DNA of 64,000 nucleotides from an uncultured Bacilli bacterium (GCA_934098705.1 CAKOPC010000002.1:250681-314680), one strand, 5' to 3'. Counted from the first letter of the stretch, positions 40,080 through 46,360 are shown. Program-made: numbers and translations. The notes: generated by a model from the letters alone, not told the origin.

Positions 40080-40188
40080 GTAAAAAAAGTATTTGACTGT
40101 TGTATAATTCTAGCAAATTATATTGATATAAAAAACAAGATGAAATATTAACAATTTTGTTAATTAATGTCTTTTATTAAAAAAAATT

Positions 40189-40213
40189 AGTCTTTTATAT
40201 AAGACTTTTTTTT
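40189..40213 (+). terminator. intrinsic terminator (A-run/T-run flanked)
   Basis: Stem AGTCTT / AAGACT followed by a T-run that runs into promoter-repeat copy 1. Confidence 0.65.
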
Positions 40214-40292
40214 GACAAAAAAATACAAACAAATGTATTGACTTTGAAAAATTAGTTTGTTATAGTAAGGATGTTTTTAAGGAGGAATTTAT
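40208..40292 (+). repeat. uvrB-promoter repeat, copy 1 (drives the RhuM-like gene)
   Basis: First ~61 nt are identical to 41472-41532. The remainder, up to the SD TTAAGGAGG, is similar. Offset between copies is 1,264 nt. Confidence 0.9.
40238..40266 (+). promoter_or_regulatory. sigma-A-type promoter
   Basis: TTGACT, 17-nt spacer, TATAGT. Preceded by ATACAAACAAATGTAT. Confidence 0.6.
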
Positions 40293-41318
40293 ATGAATAA
40301 CACAATAATTGGTAATGAAAAAAACATTTTATTTTATAGTGATGAAGAAGGTAATACAAAAGTAGAAGTATTATTAGAAAACGAAGATGTCTGGTTAAAT
40401 ACTGAAGCAATATCATCACTTTTTAATGTTGATAGAAGCGGAATTGTAAGACATATTAACAATATTTATAAAGATGATGAATTAAATGAAAATATCACAT
40501 GTGCAAAAATTGCACATATGGGTAATGATGGTAAACAAGTTTATAATACAAAATATTATAATCTTGACATGATTATCTCCATAGGATTTAGGGTTAACTC
40601 TAAAAAAGCAATTAAATTTAGAACCTGGGCAAATAAAATAATTAAAGACTATATGGTTCAAGGTTTTGCACTTAATGATGATAGATTTATGAAAGCAAGA
40701 AAAACAGATCAGGAATATTTTAAAAGATTACTTGAGAAAATTAAATTAATTCGTACAAGTGAGAGAATGTTTTATCAAAAAATTACTGATATATTTGCTG
40801 AATGTTCTATTGATTATGATAAAAATAGTGATACTGCATTAACTTTTTATAAAACTATTCAAAATAAATTTCATTATGCAATTACAGGCAAAACTGCTGC
40901 TGAAATAATTTATAATAGAGCAGATTCTAAAAAAGAAAATATGGGACTTGCTACTTGGGAAAATTCTCCTAATGGCAAAATATTAAAAACTGATGTTATT
41001 ATTGCAAAAAATTATTTAGATGAAAAAGAAATTAAAAATTTAAATAATTTAGTTAATTTATTTTTAGATATTGCGGAAAATAATGCTGAAAGAAATATTG
41101 TAATGTGTATGAATGATTGGAAAAATGAAGTAGAAAATGCAATTAAAGTTTTTCATTATGGAGTTTTAAATGATAAAGGTAAAATATCTCACCAAATGGC
41201 ACAAGATAAAGCATTTTTGGAATATGAAAAATATAAAGTAATACAAGATAAAAGTTTTGTTTCAGATTTTGATAAATTATTAATTGAAGCAAAAAATATA
41301 GAAAATAAAGATAATTAA
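40293..41318 (+). CDS. RhuM-family protein
   Basis: 341 aa. The N-terminus ...VWLNTEAISSLFNVDRSGIVRHINNIY and FRVNSKKAIKFRTWANKII are typical of RhuM as I recall it. Confidence 0.75.
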   Translation: MNNTIIGNEKNILFYSDEEGNTKVEVLLENEDVWLNTEAISSLFNVDRSGIVRHINNIYKDDELNENITCAKIAHMGNDGKQVYNTKYYNLDMIISIGFRVNSKKAIKFRTWANKIIKDYMVQGFALNDDRFMKARKTDQEYFKRLLEKIKLIRTSERMFYQKITDIFAECSIDYDKNSDTALTFYKTIQNKFHYAITGKTAAEIIYNRADSKKENMGLATWENSPNGKILKTDVIIAKNYLDEKEIKNLNNLVNLFLDIAENNAERNIVMCMNDWKNEVENAIKVFHYGVLNDKGKISHQMAQDKAFLEYEKYKVIQDKSFVSDFDKLLIEAKNIENKDN

Positions 41319-41471
41319 TTACAATATAAGTATAAAAAAATTATAAATTTTATTACCAAAATATTTTTTGTTTTAATATACAAAATCATTATAAAAACAA
41401 TTAAAGATGCATGTTAATTATTAATATTCTATTTAAATTATTAATAAAAAAATGTATTTTATAAAGGGAAA

Positions 41472-41557
41472 TTTTTTGACAAAAAAATACAAACAAATGT
41501 ATTGACTTTGAAAAATTAGTTTGTTATAGTAAAGGTACTTTTAAGGAGGGATACTTT
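41472..41557 (+). repeat. uvrB-promoter repeat, copy 2 (drives the truncated uvrB copy)
   Basis: See copy 1. Confidence 0.9.
41502..41530 (+). promoter_or_regulatory. sigma-A-type promoter
   Basis: TTGACT, 17-nt spacer, TATAGT, identical to 40238-40266. Confidence 0.6.
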
Positions 41558-41830
41558 ATGTTTAAATTGGAATCAAAATATCAGCCAAGTGGAGATCAAC
41601 CAGAAGCAATAGAAAAATTAGTAGATGGTATAAATAGTGGTTTAAAATATCAAGTATTAAATGGAGCAACAGGAACAGGTAAAACATTTACTATGGCAAA
41701 TGTTATAAAAAATGTTAATAAACCAACTTTAGTATTAGCTCATAATAAGACACTTGCAGGACAACTTTATAGTGAACTTAAAGAGTTATTTCCTGAAAAT
41801 AGAGTTGAGTATTTTGTGTCATATTATGAC
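41558..41830 (+). pseudogene. uvrB: truncated uvrB 5' fragment (codons 1-91)
   Basis: Colinear with 44411-44683. Nt 41664-41817 are identical to 44517-44670. Homology ends after TATTATGA, and the frame then runs into unrelated sequence until a stop at 41866. Confidence 0.9.
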
Positions 41831-41843
41831 AGTACCAAAAAAA

Positions 41844-41965
41844 TAGTGTTATTTGGTGCTATTTAATGTTATTTAATCCTGAAAAACGGACTAAATAACA
41901 CTCGATGGTACCAAATGAACAAATAAAATTTGTGGCCGAGAGTCGTGGCCATTCGTGGCGAATGA
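41844..41965 (+). repeat. boundary repeat D-L (phased TTATTTRRT units plus AAATTTGTGGCCGAGA block)
   Basis: TAGTGTTATTTGGTGCTATTTAATGTTATTTAAT and AAATTTGTGGCCGAGAG..ATTCGTG recur at 44255-44337. Internal inverted repeat: 41845-41854 pairs with 41893-41902. Confidence 0.7.
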
Positions 41966-42014
41966 TGTTTTAACCTTTAAATGGTAAATTTTTACAAAAA
42001 ATGATAAAATTCAC

Positions 42015-42043
42015 TTGATTTTACTAATATTATTTGTTATTAT
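42015..42043 (+). promoter_or_regulatory. possible promoter of the radical-SAM cassette
   Basis: TTGATT, 17-nt spacer, TATTAT. AATGGTAAATTT occurs on both sides (about 41980 and 42045). Confidence 0.35.
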
Positions 42044-42110
42044 AATGGTAAATTTATAAGAAACGATACTATCGCTACTTAATCTACAATCCGTTTAATA
42101 TTTAATACAT

Positions 42111-42141
42111 AAGGTGGCGATTACTTTTTTCGTCACCTTTT
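42111..42141 (+). promoter_or_regulatory. leader hairpin with short T-run in the 5' UTR of the peptide gene (possible attenuator)
   Basis: AAGGTGGCG pairs with CGTCACCTT (9 bp, one G-U pair) across an 11-nt loop, followed by TT. Confidence 0.4.
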
Positions 42142-42176
42142 AAATTACATAATAAAATGAAATGGAGGATTAAACT

Positions 42177-42404
42177 ATGAAAAATTCAAGAAAGATAGAA
42201 ACTTTAAAAAATATGAAGACTGCTGCTATTAGATTATATGAAATATATATGGCACAATCAAATCAAAATAAAATAGAAATGAATTGTTATCATGAAAATG
42301 AACATGATAATAGTGGTGCTCATCCAGATTATCATAATAATTCTCATGATAATACCCCAGGTAGAATGATGACTCGTACTTTAGTTAAAAATGCAACAAA
42401 TTAA
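42177..42404 (+). CDS. 75-aa candidate RiPP precursor with five H-x-(N/D) triplets
   Basis: Strong SD GGAGGA. The core region is CY-HEN-E-HDN-SGA-HPD-Y-HNN-S-HDN (nt 42291-42353). Overlaps the radical-SAM gene by 14 nt. Confidence 0.5.
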   Translation: MKNSRKIETLKNMKTAAIRLYEIYMAQSNQNKIEMNCYHENEHDNSGAHPDYHNNSHDNTPGRMMTRTLVKNATN

Positions 42405-43494
42405 TACTTTAATTAAACCTACACATGAATGTAACATGAGATGTAGGTACTGTTTTGCTGAAAAATATGGATATGAAAATTCTTTGTTAGATATTAATAA
42501 ATTAAAAAAGTATATTGAACTTTTAGCAGAGAAATATAAATATATAAATTTGGTGTGGCATGGTGGAGAACCATTGATGGCACCGTTAGATTATTATCAA
42601 GAAATATATGACTATTGTAAAAAGTTTGATTCGAAATTTATATATTCATTACAAACAAATGGTACATTATTGAATGAAGAAAATATAGATTTTTTTAAAA
42701 CAAATAATACTAGTATTGGGTTATCATTTGATGGTTTGACAAATGATAAAACTAGATCGCATACACAAAGAATTTTAGAGAATATTAAATTACTTCAATT
42801 AAATGAAATGTATCCTGGGGCGGTTTTGGTTGTTAATCAAAATAATGTAAATAATTTGATTGGAGAATATGAATACTTTAAATCATTAAATTTAGGTATG
42901 AAAATGAATCCTATGTTTAATGATGGTGCGGCAAAAGAAAATAATTTTTTCAATTTAAATCCAGATGAATATATCAAAAATTTTATAGAATTTTTTAAAT
43001 ATTGGTCGCTAGATACAAATTGTAATATAAATGTGTCTACTTGTATAGAATTAGTAAATTTAATATTAAATGAAAGAAGTGGCGTTTGTACTTTTAATTC
43101 TTGCTTAGGAAAATGGTTATGTTTTGATAGTAATGGACATTTATATCCATGCGATAGATTATGCTTAGATGAATACGACTTAGGAGATATTACAAAAATT
43201 ACATCTATAGATGAAGCATTTGAAAATGAAAATTTTATAAAACTATTACAAAAGAACATTTCAAGAAGACAAAAATGTATTGATGAATGTGAGTATTTTA
43301 AAAATTGTTATGGTGGATGCAATGCTAATGCTATTTTAAATGAAGTTAATAAAAATAATGTTTCATGTTATATTCAAAAAGGAATATTAGAAGGAATTAA
43401 AAAATTTATAATTGAACTTAGTAATCAAAAAGAATATGATAAATTAAATTATAGTTTATCAAAAATTTTAATAAGAAGGGATAGTAAAATATGA
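42391..43494 (+). CDS. radical SAM enzyme with C-terminal SPASM-type Cys clusters
   Basis: CNMRCRYC (CX3CX2C) at nt 42430-42453. C-terminal CTFNSC...LYPCD and CIDECEYFKNCYGGC. Confidence 0.85.
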   Translation: MQQINTLIKPTHECNMRCRYCFAEKYGYENSLLDINKLKKYIELLAEKYKYINLVWHGGEPLMAPLDYYQEIYDYCKKFDSKFIYSLQTNGTLLNEENIDFFKTNNTSIGLSFDGLTNDKTRSHTQRILENIKLLQLNEMYPGAVLVVNQNNVNNLIGEYEYFKSLNLGMKMNPMFNDGAAKENNFFNLNPDEYIKNFIEFFKYWSLDTNCNINVSTCIELVNLILNERSGVCTFNSCLGKWLCFDSNGHLYPCDRLCLDEYDLGDITKITSIDEAFENENFIKLLQKNISRRQKCIDECEYFKNCYGGCNANAILNEVNKNNVSCYIQKGILEGIKKFIIELSNQKEYDKLNYSLSKILIRRDSKI

Positions 43495-44045
43495 AATATG
43501 TTTATCACGGGAGTTCAATACCAAATTTAAAGATTATTAAAACAAACGAAAGTACTCATATGAAAAAATGGGTATATGCATGTGTATCAAAAGCTATATC
43601 AACAATTTTTTTGTCACCATTAGGTAATGACCTGTATTATTCATTATCTGGTGATGGAATTGACTATCCAGTAGAACTAGTTGAAAGAAAATCCGATATG
43701 TTTAAAAAAATATTTAACTGTTCTGGTTACATCTATAAACTCGATGCTTCCAATTTTAAAAGTGGACAAACTGGTTGGTCAGCGGAAGTTGTTAGTGAAA
43801 AAGATGAGGAAGTACTAGAAGTAGAATATATTGAAAATGTATATGACGAGTTAATTAAATTAAATAAAGAAGGATTAATAAGGCTATATTTATATCCTGA
43901 AAAACCAAATAGAATACCACAAGATAATAGTGATTTAATTCCAAAGGTCATTAAATGGAAAAAAAATGGTTTTGATGTAAATAAATTTTATGAATTATAT
44001 CCAGAATTAAAGGATAAATTTTTGAAAATGTTGAATGAACAATAA
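43491..44045 (+). CDS. hypothetical 184-aa protein, translationally coupled to the radical SAM gene
   Basis: ATGA start/stop overlap. No TM, and I recognise no family. Confidence 0.5.
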   Translation: MKYVYHGSSIPNLKIIKTNESTHMKKWVYACVSKAISTIFLSPLGNDLYYSLSGDGIDYPVELVERKSDMFKKIFNCSGYIYKLDASNFKSGQTGWSAEVVSEKDEEVLEVEYIENVYDELIKLNKEGLIRLYLYPEKPNRIPQDNSDLIPKVIKWKKNGFDVNKFYELYPELKDKFLKMLNEQ

Positions 44046-44091
44046 CTAAAAAATAATTTTTATAGAATATTATAGATTAAATTAATCAAAT

Positions 44092-44125
44092 AGGATTACT
44101 GTAAAAATAGAAAAGTAATCTTTTT
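44092..44125 (+). terminator. intrinsic terminator of the cassette
   Basis: Stem GATTACT / AGTAATC followed by TTTTT. Confidence 0.6.
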
Positions 44126-44254
44126 AAATATTTACCTATTTTTAATGAAAAAATATCATTTACTGAATTTAAATAAAATCTTAAAAGTAGCACTATGTAA
44201 TCTGTAATTTAATATCTTAAAATGCCATAAAATAAATGATAGAATAATATCAGT

Positions 44255-44337
44255 TAGTGATATTTAGTGCCATTTAATGTTATTTGGTATCGTTTAATAA
44301 ATTTGTGGCCGAGATGTGTATTTTATTCGTGTCGGCC
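44255..44337 (+). repeat. boundary repeat D-R
   Basis: TAGTGATATTTAGTGCCATTTAATGTTATTTGGT...AAATTTGTGGCCGAGAT..ATTCGTG. A diverged copy of D-L that lacks ~45 nt of it. Confidence 0.7.
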
Positions 44338-44410
44338 TAATTTTGGTTCATTTTAATGAAATTATATGATAAAATTTTAAATGAAATTAAGCTATAATAA
44401 GGAGGACAAA

Positions 44411-46360
44411 ATGTTTAATTTAGTATCAAAATATACTCCATCCGGAGATCAACCACAGGCAATAGAAAAATTAGTGAACGGTATAAATAGTGGTTTAAAA
44501 TATCAAGTATTAAAGGGAGCAACAGGAACAGGTAAAACATTTACTATGGCAAATGTTATAAAAAATGTTAATAAACCAACTTTAGTATTAGCTCATAATA
44601 AGACACTTGCAGGACAACTTTATAGTGAACTTAAAGAGTTATTTCCTGAAAATAGAGTTGAGTATTTTGTATCCTATTATGATTATTATCAACCAGAAGC
44701 ATATGTTCCTCAAACAGATACATATATAGATAAGACAAGTATGATAAATGATGAAATAGATGAATTAAGACACTCTGCAACAAGTGCATTAATAGAAAAT
44801 AGAGATGTTATAGTAGTAGCAAGTGTTTCATGTATTTATGGTATTGGAGAAAAAGATGAATATAAAAATAACATGTTAACATTAAATGTTGGAGTAAGTT
44901 ATAAAAGAAATAAATTACTTCAAAAACTTGTTGATATGTTATACGAAAGAAATGATATAGATATAAAACGTGGTACCTTTAGAGTACATGGAGATGTTAT
45001 AGAAGTAATACCAACTGGAGAACATCAAAAAGGATATAGAATAGAACTATTTGGTGATGAAATTGATAGAATAAGTGTCTTCGATGTTGTAACGGGTCAT
45101 ATTATAATGGATAAAAAAACTATATCAATTTTTCCAGCAAGCCACTTTGTAACAAGTAGTGAAAACTTAAAGAAAGCTTGTGTTAGTATAAAAGAAGAAC
45201 TTGATGAAAGGTTAGCAGAACTTAGAGGTGAAAATAAACTTTTAGAGGCTCAAAGATTAGAACAAAGAACAAATTATGACCTAGAAATGATAGAAGAAAC
45301 AGGTTTTTGTAGTGGTATTGAAAATTATTCAAGACATTTAGGGGGTAGAAAAAAAGGCGAAACTCCAACATGCTTAATAGACTTTTTTCCTAAGGATTAT
45401 CTTTTAATTATAGATGAATCTCATGTAACATTACCTCAAGTTAAAGCTATGTATAACGGTGATAGAGCAAGAAAACAAGTTTTAGTTGATTACGGTTTTA
45501 GATTACCAAGTGCTCTTGATAATAGACCTTTAACTTTTGAAGAGTTTGAAAAAAAATTAAATCAAGTAATATTTGTAAGTGCAACTCCAGGAGATTATGA
45601 AATAGCAAAAGAAGAACAAGAAGTAGATCAAATAATAAGACCAACAGGACTTTTAGACCCAGTAGTTGAAGTTAGAAAAACAAAAGGACAAATAGATGAT
45701 TTAGTAGGAGAGATAAATGACAGAATAGAAAAAAATGAAAGAGTTTTGATAACAACCTTAACTATACGTATGGCAGAAGAATTAACATCATACTTAAAAT
45801 CATTAAATATAAAAGTAGCTTATTTACATAGTGAAGTAAAAACATTAGAAAGATTAAAAACAATAAGAGAATTAAGACTTGGAACATATGACTGTATAGT
45901 GGGAATCAACCTTTTAAGAGAAGGACTTGATATACCTGAAGTATCATTAGTAGCTATTTTAGATGCTGATAAAGAAGGATTTTTAAGAAGTCATAGAAGT
46001 CTTATTCAAACAATAGGAAGATGTGCTAGAAATGAAAATGGACGTGTTATTATGTATGCAGATACTATAACTGATAGTATGCGTCTTGCTATAGATGAAA
46101 CCAAAAGAAGAAGAGATATACAAGAAAAATATAATAAAGAACATAATATTGTACCAAAAACAATTATTAAAGAAATAAGAGAAGTAATATCAAATAAAGA
46201 TGAAAAAACTATAATAAAAGAAAATAAAGAACATAAAAAATATGACAAAGCCTTATTACAAAACATAGAAAAAGAAATGAAAGAAGCTGCTAAAAACTTA
46301 GATTTTGAACGTGCTATGGAACTTAGAGATATCCTATTTGAGATGAAGGCTCAAAAGTAA
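44411..46360 (+). CDS. uvrB: excinuclease ABC subunit B (intact)
   Basis: Helicase motifs ([13 protein letters not shown]), the beta-hairpin region [10 protein letters not shown] and a C-terminal UVR domain. I prefer ATG 44411 with SD AAGGAGGA over 44381. Confidence 0.95.

What the first reader, a model, noticed from the sequence alone, without database searches (positions are those of the whole stretch)
42015..44125. Self-contained cassette: His-x-Asn/Asp repeat peptide, radical SAM/SPASM enzyme and an unknown 184-aa protein
The inserted segment contains its own promoter-like element, a 5' leader hairpin (42111-42141), three translationally coupled genes (overlaps of 14 and 4 nt) and a terminator (44092-44125). 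The 75-aa first product has a ~36-aa leader-like N-terminus. Its core carries five H-x-(N/D) triplets within 21 residues: HEN-E-HDN-SGA-HPD-Y-HNN-S-HDN (nt 42291-42353). The enzyme has CNMRCRYC plus two C-terminal Cys clusters typical of SPASM domains. Repeated three-residue aromatic-x-polar motifs are the known substrates of rSAM/SPASM three-residue cyclophane-forming enzymes (triceptides), and His-Xaa-Ser repeats define the Hxs rSAM systems. An H-x-N/D repeat served by a single maturase and an uncharacterised small protein would be a variant that I cannot place. No protease or exporter is encoded, and the cassette is mobile (previous finding).
Basis: partly seen in the sequence, partly recalled or inferred. 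Interest (0 to 1): 0.75.

Follow-up and report, generated by a model that had tools for sequence, protein, structure and literature searches.

The report
Mobile His-peptide, radical SAM, ADP-ribosyltransferase operon
A 2.6-kb mobile insert in the uvrB gene of an uncultured gut bacterium carries a three-gene operon that most likely makes a small peptide whose histidines are first cross-linked and then tagged with ADP-ribose, a peptide modification first described in 2026 and, as far as I could find, only once.

Summary
The 75-aa ORF, the 367-aa radical SAM/SPASM enzyme and the 184-aa ORF sit at the stated coordinates with 14- and 4-nt overlaps. Five H-x-(N/D) triplets fall within 21 residues. 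No other six-frame stretch of the window has more than two.

It is a homologue of MicD (39% identity, E 6e-27; profile probability 99.6%). MicD is the ADP-ribosyltransferase shown in 2026 to ADP-ribosylate the ring histidine of a His cyclophane in the triceptide minviopeptin. The residues essential in MicD (His7, Glu101) are conserved here (H6, E99).

The enzyme reaches no curated family threshold (DynA 170/450 bits, anSME 166/349, HxsB 50/370). Its homologues always sit beside peptides with aromatic-x-(D/N/E) repeats in which His and Tyr alternate. That is the triceptide motif.

Best reading: a triceptide-like peptide with His-to-Asn/Asp cross-links that is then ADP-ribosylated on histidine. 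It lacks minviopeptin's oxidase and transporter. The chemistry is inferred, not shown.

The cassette is truly mobile. It is 97-100% identical in three host backgrounds whose uvrB genes are about 71% identical, and a conspecific empty site exists.

Verdict: a new variant of a known kind, of moderate interest.

The parts
41558..41829 (+). uvrB' pseudogene fragment. It holds the host's original first 272 nt of uvrB, left behind by the insertion; its last ~12 nt are element-type.
   Evidence: It is a 272-nt direct repeat of 44411-44682 at 94% identity. It differs from the uvrB 5' end of the conspecific empty site L035 only at nt 261 and 264.
41830..44410 (+). Mobile unit carrying the cassette: 2,581 bp, plus an element-borne uvrB 5' segment to its right.
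   Evidence: It is 97-100% identical in L024 and L029, where the rest of uvrB is only ~71% identical and the flanking genes differ. It is absent from the conspecific empty site L035.
41840..41925 (+). Long imperfect hairpin with 10-nt periodic repeats at the left end of the unit. Part of the motif recurs at 44245-44298, and AAATTTGTGGCCGAG recurs at 41926 and 44299.
   Evidence: Fold energy is -29.6 kcal/mol, z = -8.2. Repeat families D2/D3 and inverted repeat I2. Function unknown.
42015..42043 (+). Promoter-like site, TTGATT-17-TATTAT with an upstream TG.
   Evidence: Found, where such matches are not above chance in this DNA. It is conserved in position in L001-L003.
42111..42141 (+). Leader hairpin followed by a U-run, which gives it the form of an attenuator or terminator.
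   Evidence: 10-bp stem, -14.2 kcal/mol, z = -6.9. A G-U change keeps the stem in L001; it is not clearly kept in L002/L003.
42177..42404 (+). 75-aa precursor peptide. The leader is residues 1-~36 with conserved L20, Y24 and Q27. The core is residues 39-62 (nt 42291-42362) with five H-x-(N/D) triplets, then TPG. There is a 13-aa tail.
   Evidence: H43, D44, S46, H53, H57, N59 and P61 are invariant in 11 precursors. The core has a synonymous:non-synonymous ratio of about 1:1, against about 1:6 elsewhere in the peptide.
42391..43494 (+). Radical SAM/SPASM peptide maturase, 367 aa, with no N-terminal RRE domain. Inferred to be a three-residue cyclophane synthase.
   Evidence: Pfam Radical_SAM and Fer4_12. 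NCBIfam gives only sub-threshold hits: DynA 170 bits, anSME 166. Conserved cysteines. The AF2 model (pLDDT 88) matches anSME at TM 0.82 and the triceptide synthase ChlB at TM 0.77.
43491..44045 (+). MicD-family ADP-ribosyltransferase, 184 aa. H6, Y29, F40 and E99 correspond to MicD H7, Y30, F41 and E101.
   Evidence: BLASTP against MicD gives 39% identity over 150 aa, E 6e-27. hhalign probability is 99.6%. Residue mapping. AF2 pLDDT is 94.5. Foldseek hits ART toxin entries and Arr.
44092..44125 (+). Weak terminator-like hairpin followed by TTTTT.
   Evidence: -7.4 kcal/mol, z = -2.2. The terminator scan did not flag it.
44126..44410 (+). Right-hand part of the mobile unit. It contains the repeated motif and the promoter/RBS region now placed in front of uvrB.
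   Evidence: It is 99.3-100% identical in L024 and L029 although the host uvrB genes differ. The junction ...TATAATAAGGAGGACAAA|ATG is identical in all three hosts.
44411..46360 (+). Intact, chimeric uvrB. At least the first 105 nt are element-derived and the rest is host.
   Evidence: It differs from the empty-site allele only at nt 9-105 of the first 272. The first 30 nt are identical in the window, L024 and L029.

Best explanation
The cassette is a compact RiPP-type operon of the triceptide kind with an ADP-ribosylation step. The proposed pathway has three steps.

1. The 75-aa product is a precursor. It has an N-terminal leader (conserved L..Y..Q motif) and a core with five His-x-Asn/Asp triplets.
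2. The radical SAM/SPASM enzyme abstracts a C-beta hydrogen from the Asn/Asp at position +2. It couples that carbon to the imidazole of the His at position 0, most likely at C2. This gives up to five three-residue cyclophanes, each costing 2 Da.
3. The 184-aa MicD-family ADP-ribosyltransferase then uses NAD+ to put ADP-ribose (+541 Da) on the free ring nitrogen (N-tau) of one or more cross-linked histidines. MicD does this on the His-Ala-Ser ring of minviopeptin.

Shown here: the gene order and coupling, the conservation of the peptide next to the enzyme, the homology of the third protein to MicD with its catalytic residues intact, and the mobility of the unit.

Inferred: the cross-link chemistry and its site, that the peptide is the transferase's substrate, and how many rings and ADP-riboses form.

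No peptidase or exporter travels with the unit. The product is therefore either processed and exported by host functions or acts inside the cell. Its biological role is unknown.
For: Third gene:
- BLASTP against MicD (taken from the mic locus L019) gives 39% identity over 150 aa, E 6e-27. The profile comparison gives 99.6% probability.
- In MicD, the H7A and E101A mutants lose all activity, and Y30/F41 form the aromatic pair (PMC12912966). These residues align with H6, E99, Y29 and F40 here.
- Those four positions are 79-95% conserved in 88 distant family members.
- The AF2 model (pLDDT 94.5) finds ADP-ribosyltransferase toxin entries (probability 0.96-0.99) and rifampin ADP-ribosyltransferase Arr.
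- MicD acts only on the rSAM-cyclised peptide and modifies His N-tau of a His-C2-to-Ser-C-beta ring.

Peptide and enzyme:
- The peptide-rSAM-ART triplet is conserved in L001 and L003-L007, where rSAM identity is 61-87%.
- The peptide-rSAM pair is kept down to 41% rSAM identity, with cores such as HDNGHDNSG..HSDSHDNNPNG.
- At 39-33% identity the partner peptides read YGD..YSD.YQD.YND..YSE or HVD..YSD.YSE. The aromatic residue switches between His and Tyr while Asp/Asn/Glu at +2 stays.
- Tyr-C3-to-Asp-C-beta (YxdB), His-C2-to-C-beta (HaaB, YhhB, HtkB, MicB) and Trp/Phe-to-Asn/Asp-C-beta (OscB, XncB) links are all established triceptide chemistry.
- The core is under stronger purifying selection than the leader.
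- The enzyme has the SPASM cysteines and the compact architecture of anSME and ChlB, without an N-terminal RRE domain.
- The whole unit, and only it, moves between hosts, so its three genes function together.
Against: - No chemistry was tested.
- The rSAM reaches no curated cyclophane-synthase model. By sequence and fold it is as close to anSME as to DynA or ChlB.
- It is only 25% identical to MicB, so the two pathways share the transferase but not the cyclase clade.
- The best sub-threshold model, DynA, also makes a His-N-to-C-beta link. That would occupy the nitrogen the transferase needs.
- MicD-like proteins form a large family (723 clusters at 50% identity), some fused to P-loop kinases or GNAT domains. 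Not all of them need act on peptides.
- The more distant peptide-rSAM pairs lack the transferase.
- Foldseek E-values for the transferase fold are weak (0.02-0.1). I did not verify that the matched chain B of the TreX entries is the toxin.
- MicC and a peptidase-transporter, both present in the mic cluster, are absent here.
Confidence: 0.6

Rival explanations
1. It is still a RiPP operon, but the rSAM does different chemistry on the H-x-N/D core. Candidates are a His-N-epsilon-to-C-beta (C-N) link as DynA makes in dynobactin, epimerisation, or another C-beta modification of Asn/Asp without ring formation. The transferase then modifies whatever results.
For: DynA is the top NCBIfam model (170 bits). 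According to the review read, dynobactin contains both a C-C and a C-N cross-link made by one rSAM. That the C-N link is His-N to Tyr-C-beta is from my own knowledge. No curated cyclophane family is reached. SPASM enzymes with the same fold do thioether, epimerase and other chemistry.
Against: The aromatic-x-(D/N/E) periodicity with His/Tyr interchange is the specific signature of C-C triceptide motifs. A MicD homologue needs a free ring nitrogen, which a C2-linked His provides and an N-linked His would not.
Confidence: 0.2
2. The transferase is a toxin or effector acting on a cellular or phage target rather than on the peptide. The rSAM-modified His-rich peptide would be its regulator, antidote or decoy. 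On this reading the unit is a mobile defence or addiction module.
For: The unit is a small mobile element with no exporter. It sits next to a RhuM-type gene that matches the PADLOC candidate defence family PDC-S05. A distant peptide-rSAM pair lies between UvrD-type, HSDR_N and DUF2726 helicase genes, and another lies next to a resolvase. The nearest solved folds of the transferase are interbacterial ART toxins. The MicD-like family is broad and includes kinase and GNAT fusions.
Against: The only characterised member, MicD, modifies its cognate cyclised peptide and nothing else was reported. No PADLOC model matches the peptide or the 184-aa protein, and the rSAM hit to pVip covers only the generic rSAM core. 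There are no phage or plasmid relatives. The 4-nt overlap with the rSAM gene and strict co-occurrence in the clade fit a pathway enzyme.
Confidence: 0.12
3. The rSAM is an anaerobic sulfatase-maturing or other non-RiPP enzyme, and the small ORF is incidental.
For: anSME from C. perfringens is the closest solved sequence (91 bits) and the closest fold (TM 0.82-0.83). TIGR03942 is the second-best NCBIfam model.
Against: All three anSME models are missed by a wide margin: 166/349, 119/441 and 97/484 bits. No sulfatase gene and no Cys/Ser-x-Pro/Ala-x-Arg motif is in the unit (the motif itself is from my own knowledge). The small ORF is conserved with its motif next to every homologue examined. The three genes move together as one unit.
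Confidence: 0.03

Closest known systems
Minviopeptin (mic) pathway of Mucilaginibacter inviolabilis: MicA/MicB/MicC/MicD (PNAS 2026, PMC12912966)
   Same: Both have a small precursor with aromatic-x-x motifs that include His, an rSAM cyclophane synthase, and a small (~21-23 kDa) ADP-ribosyltransferase of the same protein family. The transferases share 39% identity and have the catalytic His and Glu conserved. In mic the transferase ADP-ribosylates N-tau of the C2-cross-linked His, and only after cyclisation.
   Different: The rSAM here belongs to another clade: 25% identity to MicB, 367 aa against 426 aa. The core has five His motifs with Asn/Asp at +2, rather than YSK/HAS/FTK. There is no MicC oxidase and no C39-peptidase ABC transporter. 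The host is an uncultured low-GC gut bacterium (MAG records titled 'uncultured Bacilli') rather than a Bacteroidota isolate. The operon rides on a 2.6-kb integrative element.
His-modifying triceptide synthases HaaB/ScaB (HAA), YhhB (HNR) and HtkB (HTK)
   Same: All are rSAM/SPASM enzymes acting on His-x-X motifs to make His-C2-to-C-beta three-residue cyclophanes. The enzyme here has the same overall architecture without an RRE.
   Different: Position X3 here is Asn or Asp. I found no report of that combination with His in the papers read. The YhhB model scores 90 bits against a cutoff of 445, so the enzyme is not a member of that family.
YxdB (Tyr-C3-to-Asp-C-beta) and OscB/XncB (Trp/Phe-to-Asn/Asp-C-beta) triceptide synthases
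   Same: Asp or Asn at position +2 is an established radical acceptor site. Distant homologues of the enzyme here pair with Y-x-D repeat peptides.
   Different: The aromatic partner here is His. GrrM/OscB scores 91.5 bits against a cutoff of 310. I could not obtain the YxdB sequence for a direct comparison.
Dynobactin maturase DynA
   Same: It is the best-scoring curated model (170 bits). It is a compact rSAM/SPASM enzyme that links i and i+2 side chains. The involvement of Asn C-beta and of a His ring is from my own knowledge.
   Different: The score is far below the cutoff of 450. The precursor here has no Trp-Asn-Ser-Asn... core. It is not from a Gram-negative producer.
Anaerobic sulfatase-maturing enzyme (anSME)
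   Same: It is the closest solved sequence and fold, and both carry SPASM auxiliary clusters.
   Different: Curated thresholds are not met. There is no sulfatase context, and a dedicated conserved peptide partner is present.
His-Xaa-Ser (HxsABCD) system
   Same: Both have a peptide with repeated His-x-polar triplets next to an rSAM/SPASM enzyme.
   Different: HxsB scores 50 bits against 370. There is one rSAM rather than a pair, no HxsD, and the repeat is H-x-N/D rather than H-x-S.

Membership tests
Triceptides (three-residue cyclophane RiPPs made by rSAM 3-CyFEs) | Precursor with repeated aromatic(1)-x-x(3) motifs downstream of a leader | tested here: met
   There are five H-x-(N/D) triplets in residues 39-59. 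Three of them are invariant across 11 precursors. The count is far above the window background.
Triceptides (three-residue cyclophane RiPPs made by rSAM 3-CyFEs) | Adjacent rSAM enzyme with CX3CX2C and a SPASM domain | tested here: met
   C14/C18/C21 plus seven to eight conserved C-terminal cysteines. The model superposes on the triceptide synthase ChlB at TM 0.77 over its full length.
Triceptides (three-residue cyclophane RiPPs made by rSAM 3-CyFEs) | Enzyme scores above the curated cutoff of a named cyclophane-synthase family (YhhB, GrrM/OscB, AmcB, DynA, DarE/DarW) | tested here: not met
   Scores against cutoffs: DynA 170/450, DarW 103/650, GrrM/OscB 91.5/310, YhhB 90/445, AmcB 85/425, DarE 78/650. 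The enzyme belongs to an uncurated clade.
Triceptides (three-residue cyclophane RiPPs made by rSAM 3-CyFEs) | Across homologous enzymes the motif keeps an aromatic at position 1 and the acceptor at position 3 | tested here: met
   His is replaced by Tyr (YGD, YSD, YQD, YND, YSE) or mixed with it (HVD, YSD, YSE) in partners of enzymes at 33-39% identity. A leader motif LLxxYxxQ is shared.
Triceptides (three-residue cyclophane RiPPs made by rSAM 3-CyFEs) | Aromatic-carbon-to-C-beta cross-link (a 2-Da loss per motif, confirmed by NMR) | not testable with these tools
   Needs co-expression, LC-MS/MS and NMR.
MicD-type RiPP ADP-ribosyltransferases | Sequence homology to MicD | tested here: met
   39% identity over 150 aa, E 6e-27. 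hhalign probability 99.6%, E 1.8e-24.
MicD-type RiPP ADP-ribosyltransferases | Catalytic His and Glu (MicD H7, E101) and the aromatic pair (Y30, F41) | tested here: met
   They align with H6, E99, Y29 and F40. All four are invariant in the close family and 79-95% conserved in 88 distant members.
MicD-type RiPP ADP-ribosyltransferases | ADP-ribosyltransferase fold | tested here: inconclusive
   The model is confident (pLDDT 94.5). The best credible Foldseek matches are ART toxin entries (probability 0.96-0.99, TM about 0.5 on the target) and Arr (probability 0.6-0.98). E-values are only 0.02-0.1, and the identity of the matched chain was not verified. No Pfam or NCBIfam model covers the family or MicD itself.
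MicD-type RiPP ADP-ribosyltransferases | Encoded beside an rSAM cyclophane synthase and a His-containing precursor | tested here: met
   It overlaps the rSAM gene by 4 nt. It lies directly after the rSAM gene in all six related loci with enough sequence.
MicD-type RiPP ADP-ribosyltransferases | Rest of the mic pathway (MicC oxidase, C39-peptidase ABC transporter) | tested here: not met
   The mobile unit contains only the three genes. The mic locus has MicC and MicT.
MicD-type RiPP ADP-ribosyltransferases | NAD+-dependent ADP-ribosylation of the cross-linked His N-tau | not testable with these tools
   Needs an in vitro assay with NAD+ and the modified peptide.
His-Xaa-Ser (Hxs) system | HxsB/HxsC paired rSAM maturases and a His-x-Ser repeat peptide | tested here: not met
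   TIGR03978 HxsB scores 50.4 bits against a cutoff of 370. There is a single rSAM, and the repeat is H-x-N/D.
Anaerobic sulfatase-maturing enzymes | Score above the curated anSME cutoff, plus a sulfatase substrate context | tested here: not met
   166/349, 119/441 and 97/484 bits. There is no sulfatase in the unit. The fold similarity (TM 0.82) is shared with ChlB and does not discriminate.

The most novel reading that the evidence does not exclude
The cassette is not an exported natural-product pathway. It would be a self-contained intracellular module spread by a recombinase-less mini-element. A peptide carrying up to five His cyclophanes is multiply ADP-ribosylated at the expense of NAD+. 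It would then act inside the cell, for example as a defence or addiction device or as a metal- or nucleotide-handling factor. Meanwhile the element rewires the promoter and first 91 codons of the DNA-repair gene uvrB. That would make it a new functional class for both RiPPs and ADP-ribosylation in gut bacteria.
Probability: 0.12. Interest if true: 0.8.

Novelty: new variant of a known kind. Interest (0 to 1): 0.55.

Why it matters
ADP-ribosylation as a step in making a ribosomal peptide was first reported in 2026, from one soil Bacteroidota isolate. Its authors found only four orthologous clusters in RefSeq.

This cassette shows the same transferase family joined to a different radical SAM clade, with a peptide carrying five candidate histidine sites. 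It occurs in uncultured low-GC bacteria of the gut; most of the contigs come from human (Hadza) gut metagenomes. The exact rSAM protein is indexed in 113 blocks of the assembly collection.

If the inferred chemistry holds, three things follow:
- His-to-Asn/Asp rings are added to the triceptide repertoire.
- Peptides with several ADP-ribosyl-histidines become possible.
- A compact three-gene system becomes available for testing what such peptides do.

Separately, the carrier element gives a clean example, with occupied and empty sites from the same species, of a tiny integrative unit that replaces the 5' end of an essential repair gene.

Tried and rejected
- Pfam, NCBIfam and PADLOC scans of the peptide and the 184-aa protein gave nothing usable. 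The only hits were weak ones to DUF6886 (E 0.056-0.0026) and chance hits.
- A PDB sequence search with the 184-aa family profile found nothing, even at E = 10.
- The names of cluster members were all 'hypothetical' or absent.
- Searches of phage, plasmid and viral-contig collections for the rSAM and the transferase found no relatives. The only plasmid hits were Enterococcus and other plasmid SPASM proteins at about 25-27% identity.
- Rfam found no RNA family anywhere in the window, so the leader hairpin is not a known riboswitch.
- MicA could not be queried directly because the minimum query is 40 aa. A tripled core sequence worked.
- I could not obtain the sequences of YxdB, HaaB, YhhB or DynA for a similarity network.
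- Rejected: Hxs membership, anSME function, and the idea that the 272-nt repeat is a simple target-site duplication. The pattern of differences shows a reciprocal crossover with an element-borne copy.
Full report
**1. What is there**

- A 75-aa ORF at 42177-42404, with GGAGG 8 nt upstream of the ATG.
- A 367-aa radical SAM protein at 42391-43494, starting 14 nt before the peptide's stop codon.
- A 184-aa ORF at 43491-44045, overlapping the enzyme gene by 4 nt (ATGA).

The peptide core HEN-E-HDN-SGA-HPD-Y-HNN-S-HDN occupies residues 39-59 (nt 42291-42353). In all six frames of the window, no other stop-free 21-residue stretch has more than two H-x-[ND] triplets; this one has five.

The enzyme has C14-x3-C18-x2-C21. 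Across 22 homologues, cysteines 233, 238, 254, 296, 300, 306 and 310 are invariant and C326 is nearly so, as expected for a SPASM domain with two auxiliary clusters.

The regulatory features hold up unevenly:
- The leader hairpin (42111-42139) is strong: -14.2 kcal/mol, z = -6.9, followed by a U-run.
- The downstream 'terminator' is weak: -7.4 kcal/mol, z = -2.2.
- Promoter-like matches occur at chance frequency in this A+T-rich DNA. The one at 42015-42043 is nevertheless conserved in position in three related loci.
- No Rfam family matches anywhere in the window.

**2. The small ORF is a real, conserved partner of the enzyme**

A scan of one genome per species found the enzyme in nine MAGs. 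Most record titles name uncultured gut 'Bacilli', 'Tenericutes' or Bacillota; two name other taxa. In every locus with enough sequence (L001, L003-L007; enzyme identity 61-87%) the order is the same: peptide, rSAM, 184-aa protein.

The pairing persists in more distant enzymes:
- At 47-41% identity, in organisms of 36-50% G+C, the upstream small ORF still reads, for example...HDNGHDNSGDWGPSHSDSHDNNPNG...HDNSHDDSGDIHSDSGYHSDAHDNNPNG or ...HDNSPGTHPNYHNNSHENYPG.
- In an alignment of 11 precursors, L20 and Y24 of the leader and H43, D44, S46, H53, H57, N59 and P61 of the core are invariant.
- Codon comparisons show about equal synonymous and non-synonymous changes in the core, against about 1:6 in the rest of the peptide. 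The core is therefore the most constrained part.
- At 39-33% enzyme identity the partner peptides become YGD..YSD.YQD.YND..YSE, or HVD..YSD.YSE followed by CCC. The aromatic residue changes from His to Tyr while Asp/Asn/Glu two residues later stays, and the leader motif LLxxYxxQ is shared.

This is the behaviour expected of the aromatic(1)-x-x(3) motif of triceptides. In triceptides an rSAM enzyme joins an aromatic carbon to C-beta of residue 3. Several such links are experimentally established: His-C2 to C-beta (HaaB, YhhB, HtkB, MicB), Tyr-C3 to Asp-C-beta (YxdB), and Trp/Phe to Asn/Asp-C-beta (OscB, XncB) (PMC11499958; PMC11002830; PMC12912966).

**3. The enzyme belongs to no curated family**

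Pfam sees only Radical_SAM and Fer4_12. The best NCBIfam models are all far below threshold:
- DynA, 170 bits (cutoff 450).
- anSME, 166 bits (cutoff 349).
- GrrM/OscB, 91.5 bits (cutoff 310).
- YhhB, 90 bits (cutoff 445).
- HxsB, 50 bits (cutoff 370).

The nearest solved sequences are anSME (91 bits), then CteB (64 bits) and the triceptide synthase ChlB (44 bits). An AlphaFold model (pLDDT 88) superposes on anSME at TM 0.82-0.83 and on ChlB at TM 0.77 over the full length. The fold is thus the compact anSME/ChlB type without an N-terminal RRE domain, and it does not discriminate between functions.

An anSME role is unlikely for four reasons. Every anSME threshold is missed. The unit has no sulfatase or sulfatase motif. 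A dedicated peptide co-varies with the enzyme. The three genes move as one unit.

**4. The 'unknown' 184-aa protein is a MicD-family ADP-ribosyltransferase**

The protein has 241 close homologues, none named and none with a Pfam domain. A model built from 27 of them is confident (pLDDT 94.5). Its best credible structural matches are:
- The interbacterial ADP-ribosyltransferase toxin entries TreX/TreTu (probability 0.96-0.99).
- Rifampin ADP-ribosyltransferase Arr (probability 0.6-0.7 in the PDB library; 0.98 for a phage protein annotated as Arr in the viral library).

The E-values are weak, however.

A literature search found the 2026 report of minviopeptin (PMC12912966). There the rSAM MicB makes YSK, HAS and FTK cyclophanes. 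The small transferase MicD then puts ADP-ribose on N-tau of the C2-cross-linked His, and only after cyclisation. H7A and E101A mutants of MicD are inactive.

I recovered MicA from its published core sequence and then fetched the mic locus (L019). The comparison of MicD with the window protein gave:
- BLASTP: 39% identity over 150 residues, E 6e-27.
- Profile comparison: 99.6% probability.
- MicD H7, Y30, F41 and E101 align with H6, Y29, F40 and E99. These are invariant in the close family and 79-95% conserved among 88 distant members.

The third gene is therefore placed with high confidence. By contrast, the enzyme is only 25% identical to MicB. The two pathways share the transferase but use different cyclase clades. 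MicC and the peptidase-transporter of the mic cluster are absent here.

**5. Most likely mechanism**

- Shown: the gene coupling, the conserved peptide-enzyme pairing, the identity of the transferase, and the co-mobility of the three genes.
- Inferred: the rSAM forms His-to-Asn/Asp-C-beta three-residue rings on up to five motifs, and the transferase then ADP-ribosylates one or more ring histidines with NAD+.
- A homologue of a His-N-tau transferase argues for C2-linked rings, which leave the nitrogen free. It argues against a DynA-like N-linked ring.
- I put this whole pathway at about 0.6.
- The main rivals are different rSAM chemistry on the same peptide (0.2), a toxin or defence role in which the transferase has another target (0.12), and a non-RiPP anSME-like role (0.03).
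- The defence idea rests only on context: a neighbouring RhuM/PDC-S05 gene, helicase- and resolvase-rich surroundings of distant relatives, the absence of an exporter, and the breadth of the MicD-like family (723 clusters at 50% identity, some fused to P-loop kinase or GNAT domains).

**6. The carrier**

The identical rSAM protein was read on 23 contigs (the index lists it in 113 blocks of the collection). In the eight places shown the arrangement is always uvrB fragment, peptide, rSAM, transferase, uvrB.

- In two other host backgrounds (L024, L029) the rest of uvrB is only about 71% identical and the flanking genes differ. Even so, window 41830-44410 is 97-100% identical, with identical junctions.
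- A conspecific contig (L035) has the empty site: DUF1003, RhuM, uvrB, DUF1287, with no fragment and no cassette.
- The empty-site uvrB 5' end differs from the left copy only at nt 261 and 264. It differs from the right copy only at nt 9-105.
- That pattern is what a single reciprocal crossover between nt 105 and 261 would leave. The partners would be the host gene and a 272-nt uvrB segment carried by a circular element of about 2,853 bp.
- The element thus supplies a new promoter, RBS and N-terminus for uvrB, and it encodes no recombinase.
- In L003 the cassette and a RhuM cassette occupy the same hotspot in the opposite order.
- No phage or plasmid relatives were found.

**7. Verdict**

It is outdated on the third gene, which can now be placed.

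This is a new variant of a known kind: an ADP-ribosylated-triceptide-type operon with a different cyclase clade, a new His-x-Asn/Asp multi-motif core, no oxidase or transporter, and a gut-bacterial mobile carrier. I score interest at 0.55. The chemistry is untested, but the three-gene system is small enough to test directly.

Noticed in passing
window 41558-44682; L024, L029, L035: The cassette rides on a recombinase-less integrative unit of about 2.85 kb that carries its own uvrB promoter, RBS and first 272 nt. Occupied and empty alleles from the same species show a single reciprocal crossover between nt 105 and 261 of uvrB. It leaves the host 5' end behind as a 102-codon pseudogene and makes a chimeric uvrB. 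The unit is 97-100% identical in hosts whose uvrB genes are about 71% identical.
   Followed up: yes
window 41840-41925, 44245-44314: A long imperfect hairpin (-29.6 kcal/mol, z = -8.2) is built from 10-nt periodic repeats (TAGTGTTATTTGGTGCTATTTAATGTTATTT) at the left end of the unit. Part of the motif, plus AAATTTGTGGCCGAG, recurs in direct orientation about 110-160 nt before the uvrB start. It may be a recombination or regulatory site; its role is unknown.
   Followed up: partly
window 40293-41318; 40174-40288 and 41438-41552; L003 8222-8750: A RhuM-family gene matching the PADLOC candidate defence family PDC-S05 (E 2e-130) lies just upstream. It is itself bracketed by an 86%-identical 115-bp repeat of the uvrB upstream region. 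In L003 a truncated copy sits on the other side of the cassette, after a uvrB fragment and the same hairpin. The uvrB 5' region therefore looks like a serial insertion hotspot.
   Followed up: partly
L014 3739-6026; L016 2291-7423; L023 1264-5612: More distant homologues of the rSAM (33-39% identity) pair with Tyr-x-Asp repeat peptides followed by a 308-aa kinase-like protein. Others pair with HxD/YxD peptides ending in CCC, together with DUF5685, DUF92 and (in L016) Rce1-like proteins. These appear to be further uncharacterised pathway variants.
   Followed up: no
P0241-P0390 (library search with the 184-aa family profile): MicD-like proteins form a large unannotated family: 723 clusters at 50% identity with E <= 0.001. 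No Pfam or NCBIfam model covers it. One member is from an archaeal MAG, and some are fused to P-loop kinase (AAA_18/SKI) or GNAT domains. This suggests roles beyond peptide modification.
   Followed up: partly
L005 5940-9015: One related locus has a local tandem duplication after the cassette: a 263-aa protein of unknown function, a second copy of the transferase (67% identical to the window protein, with an identical C-terminal half to the first copy), and a 283-aa paralogue of the 263-aa protein.
   Followed up: no
L024 1-1120 and 8977-9825: In one alternative host, a large serine recombinase gene lies about 3 kb upstream of the uvrB fragment. A second, unrelated 282-aa rSAM/SPASM gene directly follows uvrB.
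   Followed up: no
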